This document shows positions 7,251 through 11,111 of a stretch of 62,851 bases of DNA, piece by piece. This DNA is from an uncultured bacterium (GTDB lineage: Bacteria; Patescibacteriota; Patescibacteriia; Patescibacteriales; UBA12465). The stretch is taken from NCBI GenBank assembly GCA_903945435.1, contig CAJAVM010000023.1:1-62851 (forward strand), in the 5' to 3' direction. The notes under the pieces are model-generated. The model was not told where the DNA came from. It did not search any database and saw nothing but the letters and a program-made list of their open reading frames with translations. Position 1 is the first letter of the stretch. Each line of letters starts with the position of its first letter. The position numbers and the translations under genes were made by a program.

Positions 7251-10200
7251 TTATTTTTTGATGCACCACTGATAGGCATTCTGAGTCATCTGCATCCAAG
7301 GAGAAGCTTTTAATTCGTGCTTCCACTTTTCTGGCATATAGGCCCACTGCCATTTCAAGAAAGTCCTTTCCGGATGAGGCATCATCGCTAAATGACGACC
7401 ACTCTCATCACAAATTCCAGCAATGCCCAATGGCGAGCCATTAGGATTAAACGGATATCTTTCAGTAACTTCAGCATCATCATCAACATAACGGATAGGT
7501 GCCATGTGATTTTCATTAAGAACATGAATAAGGGACTTATCGCCATAGAAGCGGCCTTCACCATGTGCTGACCAAATTCCTAATACCGAACCAGACATGT
7601 TTTTAAGCATGATGGCATCGCTCTTCAGAATTTTAATGGTTGTAAAACGTGATTCAAATCGGCCAGATGTATTCTTAATAAATCTAGCTTTTTTAATATC
7701 AGTCGTACCTTTAAAAGGAACCCAACCAAGCAAAGCGGCTAGCTGGCAACCATTACAAACACTGAGTGAAAAAGTATCAGGACGAAAATAAAATTTGTCG
7801 AACATCTTTTTCAATTCTTGGTTAAACAAAATAGTCGCTGCCCAGCCTTTAGCCGAATCGAGCACGTCGGCATAACTAAACCCGCCAACAAAAGCAACTC
7901 CGCGAAAATCAGCCAAATCAACTTTCTTGTTGATTAAATCATGCATGTTAACGTCCCAAATTTCGAAACCAGCTTTAGCAAAATACGAAGCCATTTCCCT
8001 ATCTCCATTGGAGCCTTCTTCGCGAATGATTGCGACTTTAGGTTTTACAGTGAGTTCAAGAATTTCTGGTTTCGTTTTTTCCGGCGTGAATGAAAGTGTG
8101 TAAGGACAAGATTGGCGAACAGAAATTGATCGTCTCTCTTCCTCAACACATTTAGGATTACACTGAAGCTTGTCTAGTTGATGACTGGTCATCTCCCATT
8201 CACTGCGCAGATTTTCCATAGTATCAGATACAATCGGTAGTAAAGTTTTAAGATTATAAAGTTTAATAAAATCTTTACTACTCGTTTCTCCAATCCGATG
8301 GCACATATCAACGACATTATCACCAATGATATCAGCAAAAATCGACACGATTTTGTCTTCATTCTCTGGAAGATATTCAATCAACCAACCAACCTCTTCG
8401 GTAAAAAGTTCAGGAATTTCCTGAGACTGATTGATATTAAGTCCTCCCTTAAAACCACAGTTTCCAGAAAACAACATTTCCAATAAAGTAACGATCATGC
8501 CGCCATCACTAATATCATGACAAGACAGAATAAGTTCTCTGTCTATCATAGCCTGCACAGCATAAAAAGCTGGTAGAAGTTTTTTAGGATCAACATCCGG
8601 ACATTCATCTCCCAACTTTCCAAAAACCTGGGCAAAAGCTGAACCACCCAAACGACGTTTTCCACCGGAAACATCGATGCGCATAATATAGCTATCTCCT
8701 GGCCGTTTAATGTCCGGAGTAACTTTTTTAGTAATGTCCGGCATCGGCGCATAGGCAGAAATAACTAACTCCATCGGTGATTTAATTAGTTTAGTTTCGT
8801 CACCATGTGGATAATGAACTTTTGTTGCCATTGATAAGCTATCTTTTCCGCCATCAACTGCAATTCCAAGTTCAATCATGAAATCGCGCATAGCCGTAGC
8901 CGCCTTGTACATCCGTGCACCTTCGCCCGGAAGTTTAGGCGCAGCCATCCAATTAGCCGAGCACTTGATTGATTGAATATCGTAAATCAAGGCACCCGCT
9001 ATATTAGTAATTGCTTCTGCTACTGCCATTCTGGCGCCAGCTTCAGGATTAACCAGCATCTTTATTGGTTGTTCACCAATAGAAATTGCTGCTCCAGTAT
9101 AAGCGCCTTTATCGTCTCGGAAATGACTCTGAGAAATTATAGCTACATCGGAAACGGTCAGCTGAGGCCAACCGCAACATTGTTGCTGAGCAATAAGCCC
9201 AGTTACGCTTCTGTCGCCCTTGTTAGTTAAAAATCTTTTTGAACCAACGGACGGCAATCTCAGAACTCTTTCTAAGCCAGTTAAACCATTCATTGTTCCT
9301 CTGAACTCAGATATATCAAGCGGTTTTAAAGCAAGCGGAATGTTTTCCGAGTAAAAAGTCTTTTGTGGCATGCCACCTAAGACCGCGTTCAACTCCATCT
9401 CAACCGGATTCTCATCAAGATTTTTGCTATCGCGAACAGTAAAAATTCCGTCCCCGGTTACATCACCGAGAATTTCACAGTTTACTTTTTCACGTTCACA
9501 AATACTCATGAATAATTCCAAATGTTTTGGCCGAATGAGTAATCCGTTTCTCTCTTGGAACTCACATACCCAAATTTCTAATACCGATAAAGTCGGGTCG
9601 CCTGATTTGATATTGCGAATATTGATACGGCCGCCAGCATGCTCAACCAATTCTTTTAAGACATTGGCTGGACCGCCCGCGCCCTGATCATGAATACTCA
9701 CAATCGGATTACTCGCCCCCATTTCTACACAAGCACGAACCACGCGGTTCATTTTTTGTTCCATTTCAGCATCCCCACGTTGCACAGCATTAAAATCCAA
9801 TTCGGATTTATTTTCTCCTTGCATTAATGAAGAAGCGGCTCCACCACCAAATCCAATCCGATAAGCAGGACCGCCTATCTCAATGATAACCATTCCTTCT
9901 TCAGCGTCTTCCTTTTCCAAATGATCATCATGAATTTGTCCAACGCCACCGGTAAACAGAATGGGTTTCAACCATTCGTAGCGAGTTCCATCCGGTAAAC
10001 ATGATGCTCCGGCTCGAACAAAACCTTGAATGACCGGCTCACCAAACTCATTCCCGTAGCGTGTAGTTCCATTTGATCCAAAAATCAAAATGTCTTTAGC
10101 GCTGGCAAGATTTTTAGGATAAGGAAAATAATCTTGCTCCCAGGGAAGCTTGTAGCCTTCAAGCAAAAGATTTCCGACTGCATAACCAGCTGTTCCAGCG

Positions 10201-11111
10201 ATTACTAATCCGCCACGTCCAGTTGCCTGAACATCACGAATGCGCCCACCGGTTCCAGTTTGTGCGCCGGGAAAAGGAGCAACTCCAGTCGGGAAATTGT
10301 GAGTTTCCGCTGTAAACAGCAGATGATAAGTCACGTCTTCTTCAACGAACTTAGAAGCTTGCCCCGGTCTTTCCGGAATAAGAGTCCAGATTTCGAACCC
10401 TTCAAGTACGCTTGAGTTGTCGCGAAATGCAACCAGGCTGTTGTTTGGATTAGCACTAAACGTTGATTTAACGATGTCCATCAAAGTCTCTGGCATTTCC
10501 ACACCGTCGATCACTTGTTTACCTTTGAAATAGCCATGGCGAGAATGTTCGCTATTGGCGTTATTCAAATCCATAATCTCTACAATCGTGGGATTACGGT
10601 TACAACGGCCGACAAAGTAATCATAGTAAGCTTGTTTGTCTCGTTGATCCATTGATAAACCATCAATTTCATCAAACGCGGCTAAGCCTTTTTTGAGTAA
10701 ATCAACCTCATAAACTTCTTCTGGAACTTGTCCCGTCGAAAAAGTTTTTAGAGGTTCAGGATAAAGACATTCAGTCATTCTATCAAAAGGAGCTTCGTCT
10801 CCTACAATTCGCCTTGATACTTCAAGGCGCGTAATCTTTTCATCCAAGCCACAGCTTTTCAGAATTGACAGAGCATTAGTATTGAAAGGGGTCGCAACAT
10901 TTAAGCGCGGACCAACTTCAACAACTTGAGCGCCACTATCCAGCGAACTCTTGGTAGATAAATTCCAAGATTCGAAGGTCTCAGCCAGAAGCCACTTTAG
11001 AGTTTTTAATTCTTGTTCTGTTAAAAACTTGTTTGTTTCAATATTGAAACAAACTTCACGAACTCCCTTTTCTAAAGGGCGGTACAAATGCATAACCTTT
11101 GTTGTTGTCAT
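7251..11111 (-). CDS. purL: Phosphoribosylformylglycinamidine synthase, large single-chain type
   Basis: [50 protein letters not shown], HGEGR and PHPER motifs; 1286 aa. Confidence 0.97.
   Translation of the reverse strand: [1286 protein letters not shown]

What the first reader, a model, noticed from the sequence alone, without database searches (positions are those of the whole stretch)
7251..11111. PurL with eukaryote-type (PFAS-like) signature motifs
Seen: [59 protein letters not shown] and HDQGAGG..NVLKEL. From memory of family consensus, these match animal/plant PFAS ([20 protein letters not shown].RAC) better than the E. coli type (ETHNHP, GGEIRD). Inference: it belongs to a bacterial clade close to the source of the eukaryotic enzyme, or it arrived by lateral transfer.
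Basis: partly seen in the sequence, partly recalled or inferred. Interest (0 to 1): 0.6.

Follow-up and report, generated by a model that had tools for sequence, protein, structure and literature searches.

The report
Mobile mainstream-type purL in CPR bacterium
This is an intact purine-synthesis gene (large PurL) in a tiny-genome Patescibacteria bacterium; it looks animal-like only because the textbook E. coli enzyme is the odd one out, and it is otherwise an ordinary, rare and laterally mobile gene.

Summary
Window 7251-11111 (-) encodes an intact 1286-aa large PurL with all four quoted motifs. It scores higher against human PFAS (1168 bits) than against Salmonella PurL (818 bits).

The motifs are not eukaryote signatures. 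They are the majority state of bacterial lgPurL (Nitrospirota, Acidobacteriota, Gemmatimonadota, Latescibacterota, Thermodesulfobacteriota, Patescibacteria). The E. coli/Bacteroidales type is a long-branched outlier.

In four trees the protein falls in a Patescibacteria + Thermodesulfobacteriota clade. In three of them (and unresolved in the fourth) this is the sister of the clade in which eukaryotic PFAS is nested, next to Latescibacterota/Acidobacteriota/Gemmatimonadota. An AU test rejects it as the direct sister of eukaryotes (p 0.0008).

Lateral mobility is supported independently:
- The gene occurs in 9 of 61 genomes of its genus and about 18 of 401 of its phylum.
- It lies with a PIF1 helicase between tRNA-Trp and yhhQ, and a relative has a clean empty site there.
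- One relative with about 90%-identical flanks carries a 69%-identical purL.
- Other relatives hold purL at different loci.

The gene is under strong purifying selection (dN/dS 0.055), although PurD and PurH were not found and purC-purE is broken.

Verdict: a new member of a known kind, of modest interest.

The parts
7251..11111 (-). purL: large single-chain FGAM synthase (FGAR amidotransferase), 1286 aa, intact
   Evidence: ORF. TIGR01735 scores 1474 bits against a cut-off of 1123. Five Pfam domains. dN/dS is 0.055 against the closest relative.
10806..11054 (-). N-terminal PurS-like domain (residues 20-102)
   Evidence: Pfam PF18076 FGAR-AT_N, 36 bits.
10233..10310 (-). Motif [26 protein letters not shown] in the FGAM synthetase domain (residues 268-293)
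   Evidence: This is the majority state among crown-group bacterial and eukaryotic lgPurL.
9648..9788 (-). Motifs [12 protein letters not shown]... and HDQGAGG... (residues 442-488)
7263..8045 (-). C-terminal glutaminase domain (residues 1023-1283) with Cys (SVCNGCQ, nt 7743-7763) and His/Glu (MPHPER, nt 7365-7382)
   Evidence: Pfam PF13507 GATase_5, 330 bits. The triad columns align with E. coli Cys1135, His1260 and Glu1262.
11273..11344 (-). tRNA-Trp (CCA), directly upstream of purL; one edge of the purL + PIF1 indel
   Evidence: Rfam tRNA, 57.8 bits. ARAGORN calls tRNA-Trp. The same tRNA borders the empty site in G006.
5857..7220 (-). PIF1-like SF1 helicase gene, split into two overlapping frames (6660-7220 and 5857-6756): frameshifted here
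   Evidence: Pfam PIF1 87 bits and Pif1_2B. It is a single 446-aa ORF in G421. It is absent, together with purL, from the empty site of G006.
5162..5830 (-). yhhQ-type queuosine-precursor transporter; conserved flank, the other edge of the indel
   Evidence: TIGR00697, 130 bits. 90% identical in G421 and 78-79% in G006, where it lies 86 bp from tRNA-Trp.
11569..12099 (-). Rubrerythrin; conserved flank
   Evidence: NF045767, 217 bits. 90% identical in G421 and 78% in G006.

Best explanation
The gene encodes a functional large PurL. Its C-terminal triad glutaminase makes ammonia, which is channelled to the ATP-dependent FGAM synthetase domain to convert FGAR to FGAM. This is step 4 of de novo purine synthesis. 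The host is a ~1-Mb Patescibacteria genome, called Candidatus Falkowbacteria in related record titles.

Phylogenetically it belongs to the mainstream crown group of bacterial lgPurL. Within that group it sits in a clade made mostly of Patescibacteria with Thermodesulfobacteriota (Syntrophia, Desulfobulbia) nested inside. This clade is the sister of the clade in which eukaryotic PFAS is nested. Its animal-like motifs are shared ancestral-type features of the crown group, and the E. coli type is the divergent one.

In this lineage purL is an accessory gene that moves laterally. It sits with a PIF1 helicase in an indel next to tRNA-Trp, its allele has been replaced between close relatives, and most relatives lack it.

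Shown: gene integrity, family, catalytic residues, purifying selection, tree position, distribution, empty site and allele replacement. Inferred: enzyme activity, and the role of the gene in a pathway that looks incomplete in this genome.
For: **Family and integrity**
- TIGR01735 scores 1474 bits; all domains are present.
- The Cys/His/Glu triad is conserved.
- dN/dS is 0.055 at dS 0.85 against G008, and 0.04-0.07 against G011 and G421.

**Phylogeny**
- FastTree, 216 and 98 rows.
- IQ-TREE LG+G4 with UFBoot/SH-aLRT: window clade + Thermodesulfobacteriota 100/100, inside a mostly-CPR clade 100/99; the E. coli/Bacteroidales group sits on stems of 0.70 and 0.82.
- Outgroup-rooted tree: crown 99*, clade A with eukaryotes 98*, clade B with the window 100*.
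- PMSF C20 on a reduced matrix gives the same groups at 97-98*.
- AU test rejects window clade + eukaryotes (delta lnL 142, p 0.0008).
- Motifs by clade. Identities: 58.6% to Syntrophus and to Dissulfurispira, 49% to animals, 37% to E. coli.

**Mobility**
- 9 of 61 genus genomes have PurL, all of the large type.
- About 18 of 401 phylum genomes have a full-length lgPurL.
- G006 has rubrerythrin - ORF - tRNA-Trp - 86 bp - yhhQ, with no purL or PIF1.
- G421 has 82-91%-identical flanks but a 69%-identical PurL. G008 has 85-91% flanks and a 92% PurL.
- G011 has purL beside a PurN-like gene, and G004 beside rpsL-rpsG-fusA.
- purL GC is 0.42 (98.8th percentile) and GC3 is 0.34 (z 2.1).
Against: - The pathway in this genome looks incomplete. 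No PurD, PurH or PurN was found, and purC-purE carries an in-frame TAA. A canonical role is therefore not guaranteed.
- The genome is a 27-contig MAG (97% complete), so missing genes could lie in gaps.
- No att-like direct repeats flank the indel. Insertion cannot be told from precise deletion at this site.
- The compositional deviation is modest.
- The outgroup root falls next to the longest ingroup branches, which may be long-branch attraction. 'E. coli type is derived' therefore rests on branch lengths and motif distribution, not on a secure root.
- The eukaryote sister group is unresolved in the LG+G4 bootstrap tree.
- The AU group was named after a tree had been seen.
Confidence: 0.8

Rival explanations
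1. Vertical inheritance with many losses. lgPurL of this type was present in the ancestor of this Patescibacteria lineage. The patchy distribution and the empty site in G006 reflect repeated deletion during genome reduction, not gain.
For: - Clade B is dominated by Patescibacteria from several classes, as expected if the gene is old in the phylum.
- Genome reduction and gene decay are visible here: PIF1 is frameshifted and purC-purE has a nonsense codon.
- No att repeats were found.
- Three genomes share the tRNA-Trp context.
Against: - The G421 allele is 69% identical between flanks that are about 90% identical. Loss alone cannot produce that.
- There are at least three different genomic contexts within one genus.
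- Patescibacteria sequences are interleaved with Thermodesulfobacteriota (L034, L035, L238).
- Other Patescibacteria carry quite different lgPurL types (L007, P0178, L243) or md/smPurL.
Confidence: 0.3
2. The window's clade is the specific bacterial source, or closest living relative of the source, of eukaryotic PFAS. This is the strong form of the first reader's idea.
For: It shares motifs and scores higher against human PFAS than against Salmonella PurL. It belongs to the same crown group as eukaryotes (99*).
Against: - Eukaryotes group with Latescibacterota, Acidobacteriota, Gemmatimonadota, Planctomycetota and a Nitrospirota lineage in three analyses.
- The AU test rejects eukaryotes + window clade (p 0.0008).
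- Starfish PFAS is 54-56% identical to Latescibacterota, Gemmatimonadota and Dissulfurispira, but 48.6% to the window protein.
Confidence: 0.04
3. Binning or assembly artefact. The contig, or the gene, really belongs to a Thermodesulfobacteriota or other organism and was mis-binned into a Patescibacteria MAG.
For: The nearest non-CPR relatives are Syntrophia/Desulfobulbia at about 58%. purL GC is higher than the genome mean.
Against: - The gene lies inside a 62.9-kb contig.
- Its flanks are conserved at 78-91% in single-contig or few-contig genomes of the same genus (G006, G421).
- The same purL context recurs in three independent MAGs.
- The closest PurL relatives (92%, 78%, 69%) are all from the same genus.
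Confidence: 0.02
4. PurL is retained for a role outside a complete de novo pathway. It may work in a truncated PurL-PurM segment fed by host-derived intermediates, or have a moonlighting function.
For: - purL shows strong purifying selection between G000 and G008, yet neither genome shows PurD or AICARFT.
- purC-purE is broken in G000.
- purL is not in a pur operon here.
Against: - Relatives with purL (G421, G005, G004, G010) do have PurD and/or AICARFT. PurM, PurC, PurE and PurF co-occur with purL in the four purL-positive genomes checked and were not found in purL-less G006. This points to the canonical pathway.
- dN/dS averages over a long time, and the losses may be recent.
- MAG gaps could hide genes.
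Confidence: 0.1

Closest known systems
Human PFAS (FGAM synthase; PDB 9n9w) and other animal PFAS
   Same: Same single-chain architecture and the same four motif variants ([26 protein letters not shown]). phmmer gives 1168 bits over residues 15-1284. Identity to starfish, lancelet and coral enzymes is 49%. Both belong to the same crown group of lgPurL.
   Different: It is not in the eukaryote clade or its direct sister (AU p 0.0008). Animal PFAS is nearer to Latescibacterota, Gemmatimonadota and Nitrospirota enzymes (54-56%) than to this one (48.6%).
Salmonella/E. coli PurL (PDB 1t3t; NCBIfam NF003672 / PRK05297 type)
   Same: Same enzyme, domain order and catalytic triad. It also passes the NF003672 cut-off (1312 bits against 783).
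   Different: Only 37% identical. It has different motif states (ETHNHP, GSGGEIRD, EMERR, HDVGAGG). The E. coli clade sits on a long stem (0.70) far from the window in every tree.
lgPurL of Thermodesulfobacteriota (Syntrophus, Syntrophorhabdales, Desulfobulbaceae, Desulfocapsaceae MAGs)
   Same: These are the nearest non-Patescibacteria relatives: 58-59% identity, in one clade with 100/100 support, with identical motifs.
   Different: The host lineage and genome size differ. Here the gene is a rare accessory gene next to tRNA-Trp with a PIF1 helicase.
lgPurL of cultured Nitrospirota (Thermodesulfovibrio yellowstonii, Dissulfurispira thermophila)
   Same: Same crown group and motifs. 56-59% identical to the window protein and 53-54% to starfish PFAS.
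   Different: They fall in clade A, on the eukaryote side of the crown group. The window falls in clade B.

Membership tests
Large single-chain FGAM synthase (lgPurL; NCBIfam TIGR01735) | Whole-protein score above the curated cut-off | tested here: met
   1474.2 bits against a cut-off of 1123.05, covering model positions 25-1306 of 1307.
Large single-chain FGAM synthase (lgPurL; NCBIfam TIGR01735) | One polypeptide with an N-terminal PurS-like domain, linker, duplicated PurM-like synthetase domain and C-terminal glutaminase | tested here: met
   Pfam FGAR-AT_N (20-102), linker (150-192), AIRS_C (404-560), FGAR-AT_PurM_N-like (624-789), GATase_5 (1023-1283).
Large single-chain FGAM synthase (lgPurL; NCBIfam TIGR01735) | Glutaminase catalytic triad Cys-His-Glu (Cys1135, His1260, Glu1262 in E. 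coli/Salmonella numbering, from established structural work) | tested here: met
   The aligned columns read SVCNGC, MMPHPER and PHPERTF in the window protein and its relatives.
Large single-chain FGAM synthase (lgPurL; NCBIfam TIGR01735) | FGAR amidotransferase activity | not testable with these tools
   Only indirect support: an intact ORF and dN/dS of 0.055.
Large single-chain FGAM synthase (lgPurL; NCBIfam TIGR01735) | Works within a de novo purine pathway (neighbouring steps present in the genome) | tested here: inconclusive
   PurF-like, PurM-like, PurC-PurE (with an in-frame TAA) and PurB were found. PurD, PurN and PurH were not found in G000. Relatives G421 and G005 have PurD, and G004, G005, G010 and G421 have AICARFT.
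Eukaryotic PFAS clade | Branches inside, or as direct sister of, the eukaryotic sequences | tested here: not met
   It falls in clade B, while eukaryotes are nested in clade A. The AU test rejects the joint clade (p 0.0008).
Eukaryotic PFAS clade | Motif states ETHNFP / GGRIRD / EMEQK / HDQGAGG | tested here: met
   Present, but shared with most crown-group bacteria, so not diagnostic of eukaryotes.
Gammaproteobacterial-type PurL (E. coli/Salmonella clade) | Branches within the E. coli clade; motif states GSGGEIRD / EMERR / HDVGAGG | tested here: not met
   It is separated from that clade by several branches with 96-100% support. The motifs differ. Identity is 37%.
tRNA-associated genomic island | Insertion next to a tRNA gene, flanked by direct repeats, with an integrase | tested here: inconclusive
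   The tRNA-Trp-adjacent indel and the empty site are shown. No convincing direct repeats and no integrase were found; the only companion gene is a PIF1 helicase.

The most novel reading that the evidence does not exclude
In the G000/G008 lineage purL is kept under strong purifying selection although PurD, PurN and PurH are not detectable and purC-purE is broken in G000. The most novel reading not excluded is that these episymbiont-type bacteria run only a segment of the pathway (FGAR to FGAM to AIR, by PurL and the PurM-like enzyme) on intermediates obtained from a host, or use PurL for another amidotransfer.
Probability: 0.1. Interest if true: 0.6.

Novelty: new member of a known kind. Interest (0 to 1): 0.3.

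Why it matters
- **Annotation and motif reading.** The E. coli/Salmonella PurL used as the bacterial reference is an atypical, fast-evolved form. Most bacterial lgPurL, including enzymes of cultured Nitrospirota, look PFAS-like. Such motifs should not be read as a sign of eukaryotic affinity.
- **Origin of the eukaryotic enzyme.** The trees point to Latescibacterota, Acidobacteriota, Gemmatimonadota and Nitrospirota-type enzymes as its nearest bacterial relatives, not Patescibacteria or Thermodesulfobacteriota. This is a testable lead, not a settled result.
- **Patescibacteria biology.** The locus is a clean small example of a biosynthetic gene behaving as a mobile accessory gene. It shows an empty site, an allele replacement between near-identical flanks, and several contexts within one genus. 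Most members of this group lack nucleotide synthesis (PMC4736985).

Tried and rejected
- **Representative search.** It was rerun with residues 61-1260.
- **The look-up of encoding contigs.** The genomic context of the unnamed metagenomic PFAS-like proteins could not be read. Their eukaryotic origin is inferred from tree position and from the lack of any prokaryotic relative above 48%.
- **ESM Atlas on P0143.** It gave no usable taxonomy.
- **The listing of cluster members.** It named only 8 of 30 representatives.
- **Profile scan for the non-crown half of the tree.** It used patterns that were too generic and mostly returned crown-group genomes again.
- **PMSF mixture model on the full 63 x 1260 matrix.** It stalled twice. 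It was replaced by LG+G4 on the full matrix and PMSF on a 34 x 630 matrix.
- **Script runs.** Two returned no answer but had completed.
- **att-like direct repeats around the indel.** Only short AT-rich chance-level matches were found.
- **Literature.** Searches for a published PFAS/lgPurL phylogeny with eukaryotes found none in the held library. This is not proof that none exists.
- **Rejected readings.** Membership of the gamma-type clade, direct sistership with eukaryotes, and contamination.
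Full report
**1. The observation**

Window 7251-11111 (minus strand) is one ORF of 1286 codons.

The protein is a full-length large FGAM synthase. It scores 1474 bits on NCBIfam TIGR01735 against a cut-off of 1123. Pfam finds the N-terminal PurS-like domain, the linker, the PurM-like synthetase modules and the C-terminal GATase_5 glutaminase.

Against solved structures it scores 1168 bits with human PFAS (9n9w) and 818 bits with Salmonella PurL (1t3t). BLASTP identity is 49% to animal PFAS and 37% to E. coli PurL.

**2. The organism**

The window is a whole 62.9-kb contig of a 0.98-Mb, 27-contig genome that is 97% complete with 34% G+C. The closest public records are titled Candidatus Falkowbacteria or Patescibacteria. 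Some are mislabelled 'uncultured Gammaproteobacteria', yet the genome search places them in the same genus.

**3. What the motifs mean**

I tabulated the motifs over 63 lgPurL sequences from named bacteria, named eukaryotes and unnamed representatives.

- [25 protein letters not shown] and HDQGAGG occur in Nitrospirota (including cultured Thermodesulfovibrio yellowstonii and Dissulfurispira thermophila), Acidobacteriota, Gemmatimonadota, Latescibacterota, Planctomycetota, Thermodesulfobacteriota, many Patescibacteria, and eukaryotes.
- GGEIRD, EMERR and HD[VIH]GAGG are confined to the clade holding E. coli and Bacteroidales. ETHNHP is also scattered outside that clade.

The 'eukaryote-type' signature is therefore the majority bacterial state, and the textbook E. 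coli sequence is the unusual one.

**4. Phylogeny**

*Sequence sources*
- 150 representatives at 50% clustering.
- Named genome loci.
- Named eukaryotes: Asterias, Phlebotomus, Branchiostoma, Montipora, Owenia, the plant Leersia, the alga Chrysophaeum and a EukProt entry.
- E. coli PurL.

A large block of unnamed metagenomic proteins groups with the named eukaryotes. One of them has no relative above 48% identity in about 185,000 prokaryotic species genomes. I treat the block as probable microbial eukaryotes, and this is an inference.

*Results*
- FastTree on 216 and on 98 rows, outgroup-rooted LG+G4 and LG+C20+F+G4 PMSF on a reduced matrix agree on the main groups. IQ-TREE LG+G4 with ultrafast bootstrap and SH-aLRT recovers the window's clades and the distant E. 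coli group but leaves the deep crown, including the eukaryote sister, unresolved.
- The window protein lies in a clade of Patescibacteria that is sister to Thermodesulfobacteriota with a few Patescibacteria nested among them (100/100).
- That clade lies inside a mostly-Patescibacteria clade B (100/99; 100* when rooted).
- Clade B is sister to clade A (98*). Clade A holds Nitrospirota and, nested beside Latescibacterota, Acidobacteriota, Gemmatimonadota and Planctomycetota, the eukaryotes.
- E. coli and Bacteroidales sit on long stems (0.70 and 0.82 substitutions per site) well outside.
- Forcing eukaryotes and the window's 16-row clade together costs 142 log-likelihood units and is rejected (p-AU 0.0008).
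- Starfish PFAS is 54-56% identical to Latescibacterota, Gemmatimonadota and Dissulfurispira enzymes, but 48.6% to the window protein.

*Caveats*
- The outgroup joins next to the longest ingroup branches, which may be long-branch attraction.
- The eukaryote sister is unresolved in the bootstrap tree.
- The AU group was defined after a tree had been seen.
- Named eukaryote sampling is dominated by animals.

**5. Lateral mobility**

*Distribution*
- In 61 genomes of the genus, 9 have any PurL. All nine are the large form, and no split smPurL was found.
- In an even draw of 401 genomes of the phylum, about 18 have a full-length lgPurL. About 27 have shorter md/smPurL-type hits. That second count includes one unpublished genome, G174, and no specific claim here rests on it.

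*The locus*
- In the window the order is rubrerythrin, tRNA-Trp, purL, PIF1-like helicase, yhhQ.
- G006 has no purL. It has the same rubrerythrin and yhhQ (78-79% identical), and tRNA-Trp lies only 86 bp from yhhQ. This is a clean empty site lacking both purL and the helicase.
- G421 has the same arrangement as the window, plus two extra ORFs.

*Allele replacement*

| Comparison with G000 | Flanking genes | PurL |
|---|---|---|
| G008 | 85-91% | 92% |
| G421 | 82-91% (ABC-F, yhhQ, PIF1, rubrerythrin, AI-2E transporter) | 69% |

The purL allele at this locus has therefore been exchanged between lineages.

*Other contexts and composition*
- G011 carries purL next to a PurN-like gene, with none of these flanks.
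- G004 carries a 56-58%-identical purL next to rpsL-rpsG-fusA.
- purL is at the 98.8th percentile of gene G+C and the 95th percentile of GC3 in its genome. This is suggestive only.
- No att repeats or integrase were found, so insertion and precise deletion cannot be told apart at the empty site.
- The direction of exchange between Patescibacteria and Thermodesulfobacteriota is unresolved.

**6. Function and pathway context**

The glutaminase triad is conserved. dN/dS is 0.055 (dS 0.85) against G008 and 0.04-0.07 against more distant alleles, so the gene is maintained by selection.

Elsewhere in the genome there are:
- a PurF-like gene (278 bits, below the cut-off);
- a PurM-like gene whose best structural relatives are Bacteroidetes 'putative PurM' entries;
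- a PurC-PurE fusion that scores best against animal PAICS and carries an in-frame TAA near its start;
- PurB.

PurD, PurN and PurH/AICARFT were not found in G000 or G008. G421 and G005 have a clear PurD, and G004, G005, G010 and G421 have AICARFT. G006, which lacks purL, also lacks PurM, PurC, PurE and PurF.

The simplest reading is a canonical purine module that is accessory in this genus and is being eroded in the window's lineage. The PIF1 helicase is also frameshifted here. A truncated or alternative use of PurL cannot be excluded.

Earlier notes of this scan on other contigs of the same genome (e1-2181940, e1-2181941, e1-2181916) describe the broken PAICS-type fusion and the divergent PurF. 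My own checks agree with them.

**7. Comparison with what is known, and verdict**

It is established that lgPurL occurs in many Gram-negative bacteria and eukaryotes and that smPurL/PurQ/PurS occurs elsewhere (PMC3261824). It is also established that most CPR bacteria lack nucleotide synthesis, with exceptions (PMC4736985). I found no paper in the held library that places eukaryotic PFAS among bacterial lgPurL.

The gene is a new member of a known family.
- The gene is in the same crown group as PFAS, and lateral transfer is real.
- It is not a eukaryote-specific signature.
- It is not the closest bacterial relative of the eukaryotic enzyme.

Interest is modest.

Noticed in passing
G000 contig C26:66320-67669 (outside the window; locus L088:2662-4011, minus strand): A PurC-PurE fusion frame in the same domain order as animal PAICS. 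Its best PDB matches are Bombyx and human PAICS (153 and 146 bits, against 63 or less for bacterial PurC). An in-frame TAA sits about 45 codons in. In G004 the two genes are separate and adjacent. Earlier notes of this scan already reported it.
   Followed up: partly
window 5857-7220 (-): The PIF1-like SF1 helicase is split into two overlapping ORFs in different frames (a frameshift). It is a single 446-aa ORF in G421, and the tblastn hits in G008 lie in one frame. It is always next to purL at this locus and is missing with it from the empty site.
   Followed up: partly
L269 (G421:C1:110500-121000), positions 6967-9013: G421 has two extra ORFs between purL and tRNA-Trp: a truncated aldose-1-epimerase-like ORF (176 aa) and an FAD-dependent oxidoreductase (408 aa) whose frame overlaps the tRNA. 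They are absent from the window. This marks the same spot as a variable region.
   Followed up: no
L007 (G020), L243, P0178, P0133, L235, L239: Other Patescibacteria carry quite different lgPurL types. Some (L007, L243, P0178) fall outside clade B or outside the crown group, at 44-46% identity to the window protein. About 27 of 401 phylum genomes have ~950-1000-aa md/smPurL with a separate PurQ. PurL in the phylum therefore has several origins.
   Followed up: partly
representatives P0143, P0156, P0159, P0186, P0195, P0196, P0201, P0226 and about 40 more: A large, very diverse block of unnamed metagenomic PFAS-like proteins (about 49 clusters at 50% identity, on contigs up to 151 kb) groups with named eukaryotes. 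The one tested has no prokaryotic relative above 48% identity.
   Followed up: partly
loci L009, L010, L052, L073, L208 (record titles): Several MAGs titled 'uncultured Gammaproteobacteria' or 'Actinomycetota' carry Patescibacteria-type purL. One (CAYGOK01 = G011) is placed in the window's own genus by the genome search. The submitters' taxonomic labels look wrong.
   Followed up: no
Starfish PFAS is more similar to a Latescibacterota enzyme (56%) than to sand-fly PFAS (52.5%). Cultured Thermodesulfovibrio yellowstonii and Dissulfurispira thermophila are 53-54% identical to it.
   Followed up: partly
window 17452-18279 (-): A 275-aa membrane-protein ORF gives a weak match (54 bits, below the cut-off) to archaeal bisanhydrobacterioruberin hydratase CruF. 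This is unexpected in a Patescibacteria genome.
   Followed up: no
G000 contig C26:65087-66271 (-): The PurM-like protein (394 aa) is far below the TIGR00878 cut-off (76 bits against 236). It matches best the Bacteroidetes 'putative PurM' structures 3mdo and 3kiz (142 and 140 bits). It is also G+C-rich for this genome (0.42).
   Followed up: no
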